Notes under the pieces: model-generated
What the model saw: the letters and a program-made list of their open reading frames with translations, nothing else
Told to the model about the DNA's origin: nothing
The model's database searches: none
Origin: Escherichia coli
Lineage (GTDB): Bacteria; Pseudomonadota; Gammaproteobacteria; Enterobacterales; Enterobacteriaceae
DNA: 64,000 nt
Strand: one strand, 5' to 3'
Assembly (NCBI RefSeq): GCF_051903065.1
Contig: NZ_CP178438.1
Shown: positions 10,995 to 15,435 of the stretch, in pieces
Position numbering within the stretch: position 1 is the first letter of the stretch
Layout: the number at the start of each line of letters is the position of its first letter
Position numbers and translations under genes: made by a program

Positions 10995-11016
10995 AAAAGC
11001 CACCTTCTGGTGGCTA
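10995..11016 (-). terminator. terminator downstream of the repressor gene
   Basis: GCCACC-ttct-GGTGGC hairpin (11000-11015) followed by a U-run on the minus strand. Confidence 0.55.
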
Positions 11017-11036
11017 ATTGATGTTGAGGTAGGGGG

Positions 11037-11729
11037 TTAATTGTGTCGCTTAAGGGTTTGTGACTGACTGATTAAGACCTTTCCAAAGACCATAAACCGG
11101 TGTTCGTTTTCGCTGGTAATTCCCCATTCGCGGTAAATCTGATTATCAGAAATTACCAGCAGTTTATCAGGTATCATTTGCAGTCGTTTGACGTAAATTT
11201 TATCATCAAAACCAAATACATATATACCATCCCCATCAAACTGATTGATACTGATATCAACGAAGATGAGATCTCCTGGCTCAATGGTTGGACACATACT
11301 GTCCCCACGAACGTTGATAACTTTAATGTGATTTGCTGGTCGTCCACCAAACATCGATACAGCATTATCAGTTCTGTATTCAATGGCATGAATCACATCA
11401 ATGACATCACCGCCCTGGATAAGGCCATTTCCCGCACTGGCACTGACATCCAGCATTTCAATACGGAATACATCCTTCACCTGCGCAACATCCTCACTAA
11501 TACTGTTTTTACATACAGTATTACTTTTGAGGTCTGAGGTAAAGAGATCAGCAATATCAACACCTAAGCTCCTGGCAATATTACTCAGGGCTTGTTCAGT
11601 GAATTGTTTCTGCTTACCTGTTTCGAGGCGCGAGATATTCGCCGCATCCACTCCTATTGCTTCAGCGAGATCGGCGATTTTCATGTTCTTCGCCTGGCGA
11701 AGTTGTCTGACTCGATTTCCTATGTTCAT
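11037..11729 (-). CDS. CI-like prophage repressor (HTH_XRE + S24 LexA-like peptidase domain)
   Basis: 230 aa; N-terminal IGNRVRQLRQAKNMKIADLAEAIGVDAANISRLETGK (HTH); C-terminal ..VRGDSMCPTIEPGDLIFVD...KRL (Ser/Lys autocleavage-type motifs). Confidence 0.85.
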   Translation of the reverse strand: MNIGNRVRQLRQAKNMKIADLAEAIGVDAANISRLETGKQKQFTEQALSNIARSLGVDIADLFTSDLKSNTVCKNSISEDVAQVKDVFRIEMLDVSASAGNGLIQGGDVIDVIHAIEYRTDNAVSMFGGRPANHIKVINVRGDSMCPTIEPGDLIFVDISINQFDGDGIYVFGFDDKIYVKRLQMIPDKLLVISDNQIYREWGITSENEHRFMVFGKVLISQSQTLKRHN

Positions 11730-11826
11730 GCGTTTATTACATTTCTTTATTGCGCGTTAAGCAAATCAACTTGCGCAAAATATTTGCGTGAAATAATATG
11801 CTCATCACGCAATATGTGGAGGTTAT
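11730..11826. promoter_or_regulatory. divergent PRM/PR promoter-operator region
   Basis: TTGCGCGTTAAGCAA (11750-11764; TTGC-N7-GCAA), palindromic TTGCGCAA (11771-11778), inverted repeat TTGCGTGA...TCACGCAA (11784-11812); candidate PR -35 TTGCGC / -10 TAATAT with 17-bp spacing. Confidence 0.6.
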
Positions 11827-12087
11827 ATGCAATCACCATTACGGAATGTGCGTAAGGCGCACGGATTTACTTTGCAGCATGTTGCTGCGGGCGTTCAGGT
11901 CAATCCAGCGACGCTGAGTCGTATTGAAAGACTGGAACAAATTCCATCTATCGATCTTGCAGAACGTCTGGCCAATTTTTTTAAGGGTGAAATCAGCGAA
12001 ATGCAGATTCTTTATCCGGCACGTTTTCAATCTAGCCAAAACCAGAATGGGTTTAAACCACAGGAACAGGAGGTAAGCCGTGGGTAA
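11827..12087 (+). CDS. Cro-like HTH regulator
   Basis: 86 aa; GGAGG RBS; ..AHGFTLQHVAAGVQVNPATLSRIER.. HTH; divergent from the repressor gene. Confidence 0.75.
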   Translation: MQSPLRNVRKAHGFTLQHVAAGVQVNPATLSRIERLEQIPSIDLAERLANFFKGEISEMQILYPARFQSSQNQNGFKPQEQEVSRG

Positions 12088-12631
12088 GCATCATTGGAAA
12101 GTGGAAAAACAACCTGAGTGGTACGTGAAAGCTGTCAGAAAAACTATCGCGGCATTGCCAGGGGGTTACGCTGAAGCTGCTGACTGGCTGGATGTAACAG
12201 AGAACGCTTTATTCAACCGCCTTCGTGCAGATGGCGATCAGATTTTCCCGTTGGGATGGGCAATGGTTTTACAGCGTGCTGCTGGCAATCACCACATTGC
12301 GGATGCTGTCGCACAGTCTGCTGGTGGGGTGTTTGTATCACTTCCTGAAATTGAGGAAGTAGAGAACGCCGATATCAACCAGCGCCTGCTGGAGGTCATT
12401 GAACAGATCGGCAGTTATTCCAGACAGATTCGTTCAGCAATTGAAGACGGGGTGGTGGAACCACACGAGCAGGCAGCAATTAACGACGAGCTGTACATGT
12501 CAATTTCGAAGCTGCAGGAGCATGCAGCACTGGTCTACAAAATCTTTTGCGCTCCAGAAAAGAGTGACGCCCGCGAGTGTGCAGCTCCGGGCGCCGTGGC
12601 GTTTTGTGTCTGTGGAGAAACTAACGCATGA
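12080..12631 (+). CDS. hypothetical early protein (position of a CII-like regulator)
   Basis: 183 aa, GTG start with AGGAGG RBS, overlaps the cro stop; family not recognised. Confidence 0.45.
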
Positions 12632-12966
12632 ACAGTTTAACAACACACTACCGTCGCTCGCAACTGATTGCGCTTCCTGTACCGGGTGGAAAAGCGAAGG
12701 TGGAGTATTGCTATGCAGTGAATGTACCAGGTGACAGGGAAATTGTAACCCACAGCTTTGCAGAGTGGGCTGTGGGTGATTTCAACCGGCAGAAGGAGAC
12801 AGTCCTTTGCGACAAGTTAACCGCTGGTTCAAAGATCACTACGGAGTGCCCGTCAGAGTCATTCGTTGGGAGCCGGAAACACAACGGGTTATCTACCTCC
12901 GTGAAGGCTATGAACATGAATGCTTCAGTCCGCTCGAACAGTTTCGTCGTAAATTCAGGGAAATAG
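12628..12966 (+). CDS. hypothetical protein; an overlapping ORF in another frame (12807-13019) may represent a frameshift or second gene
   Basis: ATGA start-stop overlap with the upstream gene; the alternative frame looks more protein-like toward the 3' end. Confidence 0.3.
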
Positions 12967-12975
12967 AGGTCGGTC

Positions 12976-13968
12976 ATGAGCCTGTTAATGACATCCCAGC
13001 CCATTGTGATAAATCGTGATCTTGCATGCCGTATTGGTCTGAATGAGGCAATTGTGTTGCAGCAGCTTCATTACTGGCTGAATGAAACGAATTCAGGCAC
13101 TGAGCATGGCGGAATTCGCTGGGTTTATAACACGACAGAACAGTGGCTGGAGCAGTTTCCGTTCTGGTCAGAGTCCACTCTGAAACGCACATTTGCAAGC
13201 CTGAAATCACTTGGGGTTTTGCGTCGCGAGCAACTCAATAAATCGAAGCGTGACATGACCAACTTCTACACGATCAACTATGAAAGTGAGCTTTTAGAAG
13301 AGGTCAAAGTGAACGAATCGATCAGGTCAAAATGCACTTCTCCATCGGGTCAAAGTGACCTGATGGATGGGCGCAAAATGACACGATCCATTGGTTCAAA
13401 ACGACACGCTGTCATCGGGTCAAAATGGCCCAATGATCTTACAGAGAATACAACAGAGATTACTACAGAGAATAAAACCTCTTCTCGTCCGGACGCTTCG
13501 CAACCGGACACGCAAACGGCTGAACAGGAGTTTTTAACTCGCCATCCTGATGCGGTTGTATTCAGCCCTAAAAAGCGCCAGTGGGGAACGCAGGATGATT
13601 TGACCTGCGCACAGTGGCTCTGGAAAAAAATCATCGCCCTGTACGAGCAGGCCGCCGAATGTGACGGCGAGGTGGTTCGTCCCAAAGAACCGAACTGGAC
13701 AGCCTGGGCAAACGAAATTCGCCTGATGTGTGTGCAGGATGGTCGTACTCACAAACAAATCTGCGAGATGTACAGCCGCGTCAGCCGCGATCCGTTCTGG
13801 TGCCGTAACGTGCTCAGCCCGTCGAAGTTGCGGGAAAAATGGGATGAGCTTTCCCTGCGCTTATCGCCGTCCGTCAGCACGCACACAGAAAAACGTGAAG
13901 ACCCGTACTTCAAAGCCAGTTACGACAACGTGGACTACAGCCAGATCCCGGCAGGATTCAGGGGGTGA
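12976..13968 (+). CDS. replication initiator (lambda O-like / DnaD-like N-terminal domain) containing the origin iterons
   Basis: 330 aa; N-terminal winged-helix-like region; iterons lie within the coding sequence, as in lambda O. Confidence 0.65.
   Translation: MSLLMTSQPIVINRDLACRIGLNEAIVLQQLHYWLNETNSGTEHGGIRWVYNTTEQWLEQFPFWSESTLKRTFASLKSLGVLRREQLNKSKRDMTNFYTINYESELLEEVKVNESIRSKCTSPSGQSDLMDGRKMTRSIGSKRHAVIGSKWPNDLTENTTEITTENKTSSRPDASQPDTQTAEQEFLTRHPDAVVFSPKKRQWGTQDDLTCAQWLWKKIIALYEQAAECDGEVVRPKEPNWTAWANEIRLMCVQDGRTHKQICEMYSRVSRDPFWCRNVLSPSKLREKWDELSLRLSPSVSTHTEKREDPYFKASYDNVDYSQIPAGFRG
13301..13475. repeat. putative phage origin: five GGT(C/T)CAAA(A/G)-type iterons plus AT-rich ACAGAGAATA repeats
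   Basis: GGTCAAAGTG (13303), GGTCAAAATG (13325), GGTCAAAGTG (13348), GGTTCAAAACG (13393), GGTCAAAATG (13418); ACAGAGAATA x2 at 13441-13475. Confidence 0.6.
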
Positions 13969-14459
13969 TCATGAGTCTTTTGAATGAAGTTCAGAAATTC
14001 ATTGAAGCCCATCCGGGGTGTACTTCCGGAGACATTGCGGATGCTTTTGCAGGTTACTCACGGCAGCGCGTTCTGCAGTCAGCAAGCAAGTTACGTCAGA
14101 GTGGGCGTGTGGCTCACCGTTGTGAAGGAGATACACGCAGACATTTCCCACGCCTGACTGAGAGAGCGCAGGAGCCGGAACCACAACCAGTTCGTGAAAC
14201 CAGACCTGTGCGCAATTTCTATGTCGGCACTAACGATCCCCGGGTGATTTTGTGCCTGACCCGCCAGGCGGAAGAACTGGAGTCCAGGGGCCTATACCGT
14301 CGTGCTGCAACGGTGTGGATGGCGGCATTCCGTGAAAGCCACTCCCAGCCAGAACGAAACAATTTTCTGGTGCGTCGTGAGCAGTGTTTACGGAAAAGCA
14401 GCAAGCGCGCTGTATCGGGTGATGAGTGGTATCTGTCAGGGAATTACGTGGGGGCTTAA
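13965..14459 (+). CDS. hypothetical protein (possible DNA-binding/replication accessory)
   Basis: 164 aa; ATGA overlap with the O-like gene; no family recognised. Confidence 0.4.
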   Translation: MIMSLLNEVQKFIEAHPGCTSGDIADAFAGYSRQRVLQSASKLRQSGRVAHRCEGDTRRHFPRLTERAQEPEPQPVRETRPVRNFYVGTNDPRVILCLTRQAEELESRGLYRRAATVWMAAFRESHSQPERNNFLVRREQCLRKSSKRAVSGDEWYLSGNYVGA

Positions 14460-15112
14460 TGAGTAATAAATATTGCCAGGAGCTGGTGGAACTGCGGAAC
14501 AAACCAGCCCATGAACTGAAGGAAGTGGGTGATCAGTGGCGCACGCCGGACAACATTTTCTGGGGAATTAACACCCTGTTTGGCCCGTTTGTTCTGGATC
14601 TGTTCACTGACGGTGATAACGCCAAATGTGCCGCGTATTACACGGCGGAAGACAACGCGCTGGCGCATGACTGGTCAGAACGCCTTGCGGAGCTTAAAGG
14701 TGCTGCCTTTGGTAATCCTCCATACAGCCGCGCCAGTCAGCATGAGGGGCAATACATCACCGGCATGCGTTACATCATGAAACATGCCAGTGCCATGCGT
14801 GATAAGGGCGGGCGCTATGTTTTCCTGATCAAAGCTGCCACCAGCGAAGTGTGGTGGCCGGAAGATGCAGATCATATTGCTTTTATTCGCGGGCGTATTG
14901 GTTTTGAACTGCCTGTCTGGTTTATCCCGAAAGACGAGAAGCAGGTACCGACAGGAGCTTTTTTCGCTGGTGCTATTGCTGTTTTTGACAAGACCTGGAA
15001 GGGACCGGCAATCAGCTACATCGGGCGCGATGAACTTGAGGCATGTGGTGAGGCGTTTCTGGCGCAGGTTCGCCAGCAGGCGGAAAAACTGGTCAGGGAG
15101 ATGGCGGCATGA
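14459..15112 (+). CDS. phage Dam-type N6-adenine DNA methyltransferase
   Basis: Start at the internal ATG overlapping the upstream stop (TAATG); catalytic ..AFGNPPYSRA.. (NPPY) motif. Confidence 0.7.
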   Translation: MSNKYCQELVELRNKPAHELKEVGDQWRTPDNIFWGINTLFGPFVLDLFTDGDNAKCAAYYTAEDNALAHDWSERLAELKGAAFGNPPYSRASQHEGQYITGMRYIMKHASAMRDKGGRYVFLIKAATSEVWWPEDADHIAFIRGRIGFELPVWFIPKDEKQVPTGAFFAGAIAVFDKTWKGPAISYIGRDELEACGEAFLAQVRQQAEKLVREMAA

Positions 15113-15435
15113 CGACATTAACTCAATGCCAGCAGCAGGTGCTGGATATGCTGATTTCTTATCAGAAAGAGCGTGGCTTTCCGCCAACCAATCAGGAGGT
15201 GGCAACCATGCTGGGATACCGTTCAGTGAATGCAGCGGTGGAGCATCTTCGCGCACTGGAGAAAAAAGGCGTCATCACGATAAAGCGTGGCGTGGCCCGG
15301 GGGATAACGCTTCATACCGCGGTGAAGGACGACGACAGCGAGGCGGTCGGGATTATCCGCGCACTGCTTGCCGGTGAGGAAAACGCAAGGCTGCGTGCAA
15401 CCCACTGGTTACATGAGAGGGACCTGAAAGTATGA
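15109..15435 (+). CDS. LexA N-terminal DNA-binding-domain-like protein lacking the peptidase domain
   Basis: 108 aa; MTTLTQCQQQVLDMLISYQKERGFPPTNQEVATMLGYRSVNAAVEHLRALEKKGVITIKRGVARGITL aligns by eye with host LexA residues 1-69 in this same window. Confidence 0.7.
   Translation: MTTLTQCQQQVLDMLISYQKERGFPPTNQEVATMLGYRSVNAAVEHLRALEKKGVITIKRGVARGITLHTAVKDDDSEAVGIIRALLAGEENARLRATHWLHERDLKV

What the first reader, a model, noticed from the sequence alone, without database searches (positions are those of the whole stretch)
12628..13019. Two overlapping reading frames upstream of the replication gene
ORF 12628-12966 starts by ATGA coupling to the previous gene, but the frame 12807-13019 reads more protein-like (..[40 protein letters not shown]..). 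This could be a sequencing or natural frameshift, a programmed shift, or two nested genes.
Basis: seen in the sequence. Interest (0 to 1): 0.3.

Follow-up and report, generated by a model that had tools for sequence, protein, structure and literature searches.

The report
ymfM overlapping a nested DUF4222 gene
The two reading frames are two real overlapping prophage genes, the cell-division inhibitor gene ymfM and a conserved small DUF4222 gene nested in its second half, so published ymfM experiments cannot say which product blocks division.

Summary
Both ORFs exist exactly as described. 12628-12966 is ymfM of e14-like lambdoid prophages (112 aa, ATGA-coupled to the cII-like ymfL). 12807-13019 is a DUF4222 gene (Pfam PF13973, 66.5 bits) with its own AAGGAG-N8-TTG start.

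It is not a sequencing error. The arrangement recurs in about 1,900 complete E. coli genomes and in Klebsiella, Citrobacter, Salmonella and Pantoea prophages. It is not a programmed frameshift. There is no slippery site, the DUF4222 frame always has its own SD and start codon, and both modules occur apart in other phages.

Substitution patterns switch frame at 12807. Upstream of it, changes fall on ymfM third positions. Inside the overlap they fall on DUF4222 third positions (56 versus 15 and 5). So the N-terminal ~59 aa of YmfM and the DUF4222 protein are conserved proteins. The YmfM tail is not conserved as a protein and is predicted disordered.

Yet the tail frame stays stop-free wherever the YmfM N-domain directly precedes DUF4222 (79 of 80 unique sequences, against 3 of 22 elsewhere). 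It always ends within about 15 nt of the replication-gene start. My inference is a translational relay into that gene.

RefSeq/PGAP annotates only DUF4222, and K-12 annotates only ymfM. Published ymfM clones and deletions include both genes.

The parts
12080..12631 (+). ymfL, cII-like regulator. Its TGA stop overlaps the ymfM ATG.
   Evidence: NCBIfam phage_reg_YmfL 169 bits; Pfam Phage_CP76; PGAP annotation of identical DNA.
12628..12966 (+). ymfM (Y), 112 aa: the annotated 'cell division inhibitor YmfM' of e14-type prophages.
   Evidence: Same length as K-12 b1148 with few differences; phrog_1170; annotated as YmfM in phage SKA5.
12628..12804 (+). Y-N: the conserved N-terminal domain of YmfM (~59 aa), which does not overlap DUF4222.
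   Evidence: Within-clade changes concentrate on ymfM third codon positions (54 of 75). Stand-alone 59-65 aa homologues occur in Hafnia yong2 and Citrobacter phiNP. HMM search finds 116 cluster representatives. AF2 pLDDT is 73-87 for residues 11-60.
12805..12966 (+). T: the YmfM tail (codons 60-112), read in the +1 frame of the DUF4222 gene. It is stop-free but not conserved as a protein.
   Evidence: Overlap changes by DUF4222 codon position are 15/5/56, and the third DUF4222 position is the second ymfM position. ymfM-frame pN is 0.24-0.25 against pS 0.04-0.10. pLDDT is below 50 for residues 71-112. It is stop-free in 79 of 80 unique sequences with Y-N upstream.
12793..12798 (+). AAGGAG Shine-Dalgarno for the DUF4222 gene, 8 nt before its TTG.
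   Evidence: Read from the sequence. A GGAG-type motif before the start is conserved in diverged lineages.
12807..13019 (+). DUF4222 gene (D), 70 aa, TTG start. The Pfam domain spans residues 2-53.
   Evidence: PF13973 66.5 bits. PGAP annotates exactly this ORF, WP_001250270.1. dN is 0.04-0.07 with pS 0.72-0.81 between clades. The predicted fold is a small beta-barrel, pLDDT 87.8.
12966..12969 (+). GAGG, SD-like, 6 nt before the replication-gene ATG. It abuts the ymfM TAG stop (12964-12966).
   Evidence: Read from the sequence.
12976..13968 (+). Replication initiation (O-like / DnaD-like) gene. Its start lies 9 nt after the ymfM stop and 44 nt before the DUF4222 stop.
   Evidence: phrog_391 'replication initiation O-like' 341 bits; PGAP CDS.
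12981..12981 (.). Mosaic junction. Homology with K-12 e14, SfII and SKA5 ends here, just after ATGAGC of the replication gene. The DUF4222 C-terminus is therefore 59 aa or 70 aa depending on the replication module.
   Evidence: Megablast hits end at query position 482; alignment A1 diverges after column 382; D is 59 or 70 aa.

Best explanation
This is an overlapping (overprinted) gene pair in the early rightward operon of an e14-like lambdoid prophage. Gene order is cro, ymfL (cII-like), ymfM with the DUF4222 gene nested in its 3' half, then the replication gene.

Shown:
- ymfM starts by ATGA overlap with ymfL. Its first ~59 codons encode a conserved small domain (Y-N).
- From 12807 a DUF4222 gene (D) with its own strong SD and TTG start is read one base behind the ymfM frame, under strong purifying selection.
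- The last 52 ymfM codons (T) are the +1 frame of D. They are not conserved as a protein and are predicted disordered.
- T is kept free of stop codons wherever Y-N directly precedes D, and it ends within about 15 nt of the replication-gene start.

Inferred: T is kept open mainly as a translational relay. Ribosomes coming from ymfL and Y-N read across D without dropping off and terminate at the SD/ATG of the replication gene, which couples its translation to upstream translation. D is made in parallel by independent initiation. On this view YmfM is Y-N plus a sequence-indifferent tail. The published division-inhibition phenotype could come from Y-N, from full-length YmfM, or from the nested DUF4222 protein.
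For: 1. Both ORFs and their start signals are in the sequence.
2. D is a Pfam DUF4222 member. RgdR, a characterised EHEC regulator, belongs to the same family (82 bits, hhalign 97.7%).
3. The frame switch in substitution periodicity. Y-N region changes fall on ymfM position 3 (12/17, 5/7, 19/23 and 18/28 within clades). Overlap changes by DUF4222 position are 15/5/56. D has dN 0.04-0.07 with saturated pS 0.72-0.81.
4. The modules are separable. In phiNP, Y-N (65 aa) and D (59 aa) are separated by rha. In yong2, Y-N is annotated as a 59-aa stand-alone gene.
5. Stop avoidance. The +1 frame of D is stop-free in 79 of 80 unique D cores with Y-N directly upstream, against 3 of 22 without. The +2 frame is never stop-free, 0 of 102. 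The chance of an open +1 frame given the D protein is 0.02-0.04 or 0.04-0.17 per lineage. The product over 12 lineages below 85% nt identity is about 1e-12, or 1e-3.8 with a conservative within-gene codon shuffle. At-risk dicodons use only T/C-ending codons, whereas non-risk Val, Leu and Ile codons also use G/A.
6. Lengths of Y-N family representatives (50% identity clusters) are bimodal: 37 at 55-69 aa, 29 at 100-124 aa (25 of them 105-119) and 6 at 70-94 aa.
7. In L181-L183 T is a separate 55-59-codon ORF. Its ATG overlaps the Y-N stop (GTGAATGA holds the D start, T start and Y stop). In L181 and L183 D and T both end at the replication ATG, as CCATGAGCGTTAA.
8. The ymfM or T stop lies from 11 nt inside to 15 nt before the replication start in every lineage examined.
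Against: - There is no direct evidence here that either frame is translated. No ribosome profiling or proteomics for this locus was found in the held literature.
- The lineages are not strictly independent.
- The control set without Y-N upstream is mostly one DUF4222 subfamily (phiNP-like), and some of its proteins force +1 stops by amino-acid sequence alone.
- Exceptions exist. In L116/L176, Y-N stops at the D start and the +1 frame has 4 stops. In L180, ymfM stops 9 codons into D.
- In several lineages D itself ends in an ATGA overlap with the replication gene, so a second relay lane is not obviously needed.
- The relay idea does not exclude selection on tail length or composition.
Confidence: 0.6

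Rival explanations
1. The YmfM tail is a functional part of the protein. It would be a disordered Ser/Thr/Gly/Ala-rich C-terminal region whose length or composition, not its sequence, is needed for YmfM activity, stability or turnover. The open frame would be kept for the protein's sake rather than for ribosome traffic.
For: The tail is kept open and has a tight length of 50-57 aa across 25 or more clusters below 50% identity. It is predicted disordered. The phenotype was obtained with the full 112-aa ORF.
Against: Y-N exists without any tail in yong2 (59 aa), phiNP (65 aa) and L116/L176 (60 aa), and with unrelated short tails in P0056 and P0070. In L181-L183 the tail frame is a separate ORF, not part of the Y-N protein. 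Second codon positions of the tail vary freely.
Confidence: 0.2
2. Only the DUF4222 gene is real within the overlap. On this view ymfM is effectively a ~59-aa gene whose stop codon happens to be missing, and the 52-codon read-through is an accident of the DUF4222 sequence with no selection.
For: The tail shows no amino-acid conservation. PGAP does not call ymfM in RefSeq genomes other than K-12. The in-phase antisense ORF 12711-13004 shows that long accidental ORFs do occur over this gene.
Against: The chance of an open +1 frame is 2-17% per lineage, yet it is open in 12 diverged lineages with saturated synonymous sites. It is closed in 19 of 22 D genes that lack Y-N upstream. The length distribution is bimodal rather than geometric.
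Confidence: 0.12
3. A programmed -1 ribosomal frameshift joins the YmfM N-domain to the DUF4222 domain to give a ~118-aa fusion protein.
For: The DUF4222 frame is -1 relative to ymfM. An SD-like AAGGAG lies just upstream of the junction, as in dnaX-type shifts. In-frame Y-N::D fusions of 102-119 aa exist in public assemblies (P0031, P0052, P0059, P0065).
Against: There is no slippery heptamer at the junction in any lineage. The junction reads GTCCTTTGCGAC in the window, and the 16 nt before the D start differ between lineages (AGGTCGA ATG, AGAAAGT ATG, CTTTCGC GTG, CTGATCT GTG). A D-frame stop lies 18-72 nt upstream of the D start in most loci. D always begins with a valid start codon after an SD. 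D and Y-N occur as separate genes elsewhere. The database fusions each have a different junction and are rare, as expected of indels or assembly errors.
Confidence: 0.03
4. A sequencing error or a recent natural frameshift split one ancestral gene into two frames.
For: None beyond the appearance of two overlapping frames.
Against: Identical DNA occurs in 10 complete genomes from different hosts and countries, and the arrangement is present in 1,925 genomes. It is conserved at DUF4222 protein identities of about 33-47% in lineages such as L089, L090 and L092.
Confidence: 0.01

Closest known systems
ymfM (b1148) of cryptic prophage e14, E. coli K-12: 'cell division inhibitor YmfM' / SfiC (Ansari et al., bioRxiv 10.1101/2020.11.19.390815)
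   Same: Same gene: 112 aa, same position between ymfL and the replication gene, same ATGA start, near-identical sequence.
   Different: Nothing differs structurally. What is added here is that only the first ~59 aa are conserved as a protein and that the rest overlaps an unannotated (in K-12) DUF4222 gene. The published clone (ORF in pBAD24) and deletions include the DUF4222 SD, its TTG start and codons 1-53, so they do not assign the phenotype to a frame.
DUF4222 (Pfam PF13973), whose characterised member is RgdR (ECs1581) of EHEC O157:H7 prophage Sp7/CP-933C (Flockhart et al. 2012, PMC3378721)
   Same: Both score above the Pfam threshold (66.5 and 82 bits). Both are small prophage proteins encoded immediately upstream of the element's replication gene. 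RgdR overlaps the primase gene by ATGA at L175:4016.
   Different: RgdR is 99 aa with an N-terminal extension carrying the RGD motif, and it sits in a P4-like element. It has about 35% identity to the alignment consensus over 51 columns. Its reported roles (LEE1 activation, motility repression, weak non-specific DNA binding) have not been tested for the protein here.
Lambda Rz/Rz1 (own knowledge): a gene wholly embedded in the +1 frame of another phage gene
   Same: Two phage genes in overlapping frames on the same strand, offset by one base, each with its own start.
   Different: In Rz/Rz1 both products are conserved functional proteins, and Rz1 lies entirely inside Rz. Here the overlap is a 3' extension of the upstream gene. 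The overlapped part of one frame is constrained only to lack stops.
Translational coupling by stop/start overlap (ATGA, termination-reinitiation) in phage and bacterial operons (own knowledge)
   Same: ymfL/ymfM ATGA overlap. The ymfM stop lies 9 nt before the replication ATG, next to its SD. In relatives the junctions are GTGAATGA and CCATGAGCGTTAA.
   Different: The proposed relay runs through 52-59 codons of another gene's +1 frame. That is much longer than the usual 1-4 nt overlaps. Dependence of replication-gene translation on it is untested.
Programmed -1 frameshifting (dnaX; lambda G/GT) (own knowledge)
   Same: A -1 frame relation, and an SD-like element upstream of the frame junction.
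   Different: There is no slippery site. The downstream frame has its own conserved start, and the two parts occur as separate genes.

Membership tests
YmfM (e14 b1148) | Full-length sequence similarity to K-12 YmfM. | tested here: met
   112 aa in both. The DNA alignment shows few differences over the ORF. phrog_1170 matches positions 1-112.
YmfM (e14 b1148) | Synteny: directly after the cII-like ymfL and before the replication gene of a lambdoid early operon. | tested here: met
YmfM (e14 b1148) | Inhibits FtsZ-ring formation when expressed. | not testable with these tools
   Reported for the K-12 ORF clone only. That clone also carries the nested DUF4222 gene.
DUF4222 (PF13973) | Score above Pfam's gathering threshold. 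| tested here: met
   66.5 bits against 27, covering residues 2-53.
DUF4222 (PF13973) | Evolves as a protein (purifying selection in this frame). | tested here: met
   Changes by codon position are 15/5/56. dN is 0.04-0.07 with pS 0.72-0.81.
DUF4222 (PF13973) | RgdR-like regulatory activity. | not testable with these tools
Programmed -1 ribosomal frameshift site | Slippery heptamer X XXY YYZ at the frame junction, conserved among relatives. | tested here: not met
   Junction sequences differ between lineages and none is slippery.
Programmed -1 ribosomal frameshift site | The downstream frame has no initiation signals of its own. | tested here: not met
   TTG, ATG or GTG lies 5-9 nt after a GGAG-type SD in all lineages. 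D is a stand-alone gene in phiNP-type phages.
Overprinted (out-of-frame overlapping) gene pair | Both frames stay open across diverged relatives more often than chance. | tested here: met
   79 of 80 against 3 of 22; the +2 frame control is 0 of 102. Per-lineage chance is 0.02-0.17.
Overprinted (out-of-frame overlapping) gene pair | Amino-acid-level purifying selection in both frames within the overlap. | tested here: not met
   Only the DUF4222 frame shows it. The ymfM frame has pN 0.24-0.25 against pS 0.04-0.10.
Translationally coupled operon (termination-reinitiation) | The upstream stop lies within a few nt of the downstream start. | tested here: met
   ymfL/ymfM ATGA. The ymfM stop is 9 nt before the replication ATG in the window, and from -11 to +15 nt in relatives.
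Translationally coupled operon (termination-reinitiation) | Downstream translation depends on upstream translation. | not testable with these tools
   Needs reporter fusions with frame-specific stop mutations.

The most novel reading that the evidence does not exclude
The C-terminal half of the annotated cell-division inhibitor YmfM would not be a protein domain at all. It would be a stop-free 'relay lane' read through the +1 frame of a conserved DUF4222 gene, kept open only so that ribosomes from the cII-like gene and the YmfM N-domain reach the replication-gene start. The SfiC/YmfM filamentation phenotype would then belong either to the 59-aa N-domain or to the nested DUF4222 protein, which is unannotated in K-12 and related to the EHEC regulator RgdR.
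Probability: 0.35. Interest if true: 0.65.

Novelty: new member of a known kind. Interest (0 to 1): 0.5.

Why it matters
ymfM is cited as the long-sought sfiC gene, an SOS-induced, SulA-independent division inhibitor. It is also used as a tool to make filamentous E. coli. If half of that ORF is an unconstrained read-through of another, strongly conserved gene, the molecular identity of the inhibitor is open. Four single-base changes could settle it.

The locus also exposes an annotation conflict. K-12 and phage records call ymfM, while RefSeq/PGAP calls only DUF4222. The conflict affects thousands of Enterobacterales genomes.

More generally, this is a clean natural example of an overlap in which one frame is selected only to lack stop codons. 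Gene finders and dN/dS screens for overlapping genes would miss it.

Tried and rejected
- **Sequencing error or pseudogene:** rejected by recurrence in genomes.
- **Programmed -1 frameshift:** rejected, as set out in the rival explanations. The rare in-frame Y-N::D fusions in public assemblies (P0031, P0052, P0059, P0065) each have a different junction and look like indels.
- **Antisense ORF 12711-13004 (97 aa):** it is exactly in phase with DUF4222 codons. Stops there can arise only from sense codons TTA, CTA and TCA, so a long ORF is expected by chance. It is not treated as a gene.
- **Structured RNA:** no Rfam match in 11000-14000 at E up to 1.
- **Internal promoter or terminator:** the consensus scan of 11600-13300 found no more than in shuffled sequence.
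- **Defence-system role:** no PADLOC match for YmfL, YmfM or DUF4222.
- **Pairwise dN/dS on the Y-N region:** the window-versus-L017 comparison did not discriminate between frames (omega 0.46 against 0.57 and 1.56). The within-clade periodicity is the evidence used instead.
- **Locus search with the Y-N alignment:** The search for related loci failed because no stretch was conserved enough.
- **Literature:** the e14 analysis paper of Mehta et al. 2004 is not in the held library. No paper was found linking ymfM to ribosome profiling or to an overlapping gene.
Full report
**What is in the window.**

The region lies in the early rightward operon of a lambdoid prophage.
- A CI-type repressor is at 11037-11729 (-).
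- A Cro-like HTH protein is at 11827-12087.
- A cII-like gene, ymfL, is at 12080-12631.
- The two ORFs of the finding follow, and then a replication-initiation gene at 12976-13968.

ORF 12628-12966 (112 aa) starts with an ATG that overlaps the ymfL TGA. ORF 12807-13019 (70 aa) starts with TTG, 8 nt after AAGGAG (12793-12798). The overlap is 160 nt, and ymfM codons start one base after DUF4222 codons.

**Identity of the two ORFs.**

The first ORF is ymfM. K-12 e14 carries the same 112-aa ORF in the same place, annotated 'cell division inhibitor YmfM'.

The second ORF matches Pfam DUF4222 at 66.5 bits against a cut-off of 27.

Annotation sources disagree.
- PGAP, on DNA identical to the window, calls ymfL, the DUF4222 ORF and the replication gene, and does not call ymfM.
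- Phage records (SKA5, mEp460_4F5) and the curated K-12 record call the 112-aa ORF and not DUF4222.
- The 59-aa DUF4222 ORF is intact in K-12 at L004:3502-3681.

**It is not an error.**

The 601-bp query around the finding is 100% identical in 10 complete E. coli genomes. It is covered at 80% or more in 1,925 of 5,426 genomes. The same two-frame layout occurs in IMG/VR prophages at roughly 80% DUF4222 protein identity, whose protein-database relatives come from Klebsiella, Citrobacter, Salmonella and Enterobacter. It also occurs in Pantoea phage AH07, and in lineages whose DUF4222 protein is only about 33-47% identical.

**Which frame is selected.**

Across 45 unique overlap sequences, the minimum number of changes by DUF4222 codon position is 15, 5 and 56. 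Between the three main clades the DUF4222 frame has dN 0.04-0.07, with synonymous sites saturated at pS 0.72-0.81. The ymfM frame over the same bases has pN 0.24-0.25 and pS 0.04-0.10. So within the overlap only the DUF4222 protein is conserved. The YmfM tail changes freely, because its second codon positions are the DUF4222 third positions.

Upstream of 12807 the pattern reverses. Within clades, 54 of 75 changes fall on ymfM third positions. The N-terminal ~59 aa (Y-N) have recognisable homologues down to 37-41% identity. AlphaFold agrees: residues 11-60 of YmfM have pLDDT 73-87, and residues 71-112 are below 50.

**Y-N and DUF4222 (D) are separable modules.**

- In Citrobacter phage phiNP, a 65-aa Y-N ORF follows ymfL. 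A rha gene is inserted after it, and a 59-aa D ORF sits just before the replication gene.
- In Hafnia phage yong2, Y-N is an annotated 59-aa gene and D lies about 850 nt further on.
- In L116/L176, Y-N (60 aa) stops exactly on the D start (ATGA), and D stops on the replication start.
- D always begins with TTG, ATG or GTG after a GGAG-type SD.

No junction carries a slippery heptamer. Rare in-frame Y-N::D fusions in public assemblies each have a different junction. A programmed frameshift is therefore rejected.

**The unexpected part: the tail frame is kept open.**

Given the D protein sequence and local codon usage, the +1 frame should be stop-free over 52 codons only 2-4% of the time. With codon usage taken from control D genes, the figure is 4-17% per lineage. 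The observed counts are far from that.
- Among 102 unique D cores, the +1 frame is stop-free in 79 of 80 that have Y-N directly upstream.
- It is stop-free in only 3 of 22 that do not. Those 22 carry up to 6 stops, about 3 on average.
- The +2 frame is never stop-free.

The Y-N-linked set spans 12 lineages below 85% nucleotide identity. The combined chance is about 1e-12 if the lineages are independent, or 1e-3.8 under a deliberately conservative within-gene codon shuffle.

The five dicodons that could create a stop (Val/Leu4-Asn, Val16-Arg, Val18-Ile, Val28-Ile, Leu43-Glu) use only T- or C-ending codons in all 47 overlap sequences tallied. Val14, Leu31 and Ile19, which carry no risk, also use G- or A-ending codons.

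An exhaustive HMM search with the Y-N profile gives cluster representatives whose lengths are bimodal. There are 37 at 55-69 aa, 29 at 100-124 aa (25 of them at 105-119 aa) and 6 at 70-94 aa. Several of these intermediate-length representatives look like chimeras or truncations. Random stops would give a geometric spread instead.

**Where the open frame ends.**

In the window the ymfM TAG (12964-12966) abuts a GAGG and lies 9 nt before the replication ATG at 12976. The D stop lies 44 nt inside the replication gene. In every relative examined, the ymfM stop lies from 11 nt inside to 15 nt before the replication start.

L181-L183 are the most telling loci.
- Y-N there sits in a different frame and stops within GTGAATGA. 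That octamer holds the D start (GTG), an ATG that opens a separate 55-59-codon ORF in the +1 frame of D, and the Y-N stop (TGA).
- In L181 and L183 both lanes end at CCATGAGCGTTAA, which holds the replication ATG, the D TGA and the +1 ORF TAA.

In SfV and yong2, the +1 frame over D runs straight into an Ash-family gene.

**Mechanism.**

I infer that the +1 frame over D serves as a translational relay. It lets ribosomes coming from ymfL and Y-N reach the next long gene instead of terminating inside D. D itself is made by independent initiation.

This fits three facts: the tail has no sequence constraint, tail-less Y-N genes exist, and the stop position is tightly placed.

It is not shown. A tail needed for its length or composition is the main rival. 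Exceptions exist (L116/L176 and L180).

**What the products may do.**

Expression of the K-12 ymfM ORF from pBAD24 blocks Z-ring formation independently of SulA, SlmA and MinC. Deleting ymfM reduces SOS filamentation in a sulA background. The earlier library clone carried ymfL(142-185), ymfM and ymfN(1-92).

I found no frame-specific control in the text. A clone of the ORF carries the DUF4222 SD, its TTG start and codons 1-53, which is the whole Pfam domain. Deletions of the ymfM ORF would remove most of the DUF4222 gene as well. The phenotype therefore cannot yet be assigned to Y-N, to full-length YmfM or to D.

The one characterised DUF4222 protein is RgdR of EHEC. It activates LEE1, represses motility and binds DNA weakly. 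It too is encoded immediately upstream of its element's replication gene. Y-N has no structural neighbour.

**Novelty and score.**

Both ORFs are already in public annotation, and overlapping phage genes are a known kind. New here, as far as the held literature shows, are four points.
- ymfM and a DUF4222 gene form a conserved overlapping pair.
- Only half of YmfM is a conserved protein.
- The other half is selected merely to stay open.
- The sfiC assignment is therefore ambiguous.

I rate this a new member of a known kind, with interest 0.5.

Noticed in passing
window 12555-12690, - strand (hairpin 12566-12595 followed by UCACUCUUUUCU): Shinhara et al. 2011 (PMC3175480) detected a cis-antisense sRNA, ECS003 (116 nt by reads, ~70 nt on Northern blot), opposite the ymfL/ymfM junction of e14 and covering the ymfM RBS. 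On the minus strand the window has a GC-rich hairpin plus a U-rich tract inside the ymfL 3' end (-22.3 kcal/mol, z -1.7). The position recalls lambda OOP. The module 12500-12641 is ~98% identical in SfV, cdtI and Stx2c phages, although the downstream DNA differs.
   Followed up: partly
L004:3502-3681 (E. coli K-12 MG1655, 1204001-1204180): An intact 59-aa DUF4222 ORF with the same SD and TTG start is nested in ymfM of e14. It is not annotated in the K-12 record, which lists only ymfM and ymfN.
   Followed up: partly
window 12711-13004, - strand: A 97-aa antisense ORF lies exactly in phase with DUF4222 codons. Similar ORFs occur in K-12, AH07, SfV and yong2. This is expected by chance, because only sense codons TTA, CTA and TCA give stops in that frame.
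   Followed up: yes
window 12981: A mosaic junction lies 5 nt into the replication gene, just after ATGAGC. Relatives with a different replication module (K-12 e14, SfII, SKA5) diverge here. As a result the DUF4222 protein ends ...VGHEH (59 aa) in those, and ...VGHEPVNDIPAHCDKS (70 aa) in this window.
   Followed up: yes
L088:1352-2188 (SfV orf37) and L087:1984-2667 (Hafnia yong2 'Ash family protein'): In these phages the +1 frame over the DUF4222 gene is continuous with an Ash-family domain (Pfam Phage_ASH from aa 117 of orf37). The annotated Ash ORFs therefore carry an N-terminal extension that overlaps DUF4222 out of frame. The true Ash start is unclear.
   Followed up: partly
L175:3720-4019 (E. 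coli O157:H7 Sakai, ECs_1581 = rgdR): The characterised DUF4222 regulator RgdR sits directly upstream of, and overlaps by ATGA, the primase gene of prophage Sp7/CP-933C. The position 'just before the replication gene' is thus shared between lambdoid phages and this P4-like element.
   Followed up: partly
L181:1679-1686 and 1852-1862: A compact branch point and merge point. GTGAATGA holds the DUF4222 GTG start, the ATG of a separate +1-frame ORF and the TGA stop of the Y-N gene. CCATGAGCGTTAA holds the replication ATG, the DUF4222 TGA and the +1 ORF TAA.
   Followed up: yes
proteins P0031, P0052, P0059, P0065 (Logan/ENA assemblies): Sporadic in-frame fusions of the YmfM N-domain to the DUF4222 domain (102-119 aa), each with a different junction. 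They are most likely indels or assembly errors, but they could serve as natural test cases.
   Followed up: partly
window 15109-15435 (+) and 13965-14459 (+): Downstream genes are annotated by PGAP on identical DNA as a 108-aa 'LexA repressor' (too short to be a full-length LexA) and a PerC-family regulator. They are followed by Dam methylase, RusA and a KilA-N protein. The operon is a typical mosaic early region. I did not examine it further.
   Followed up: no
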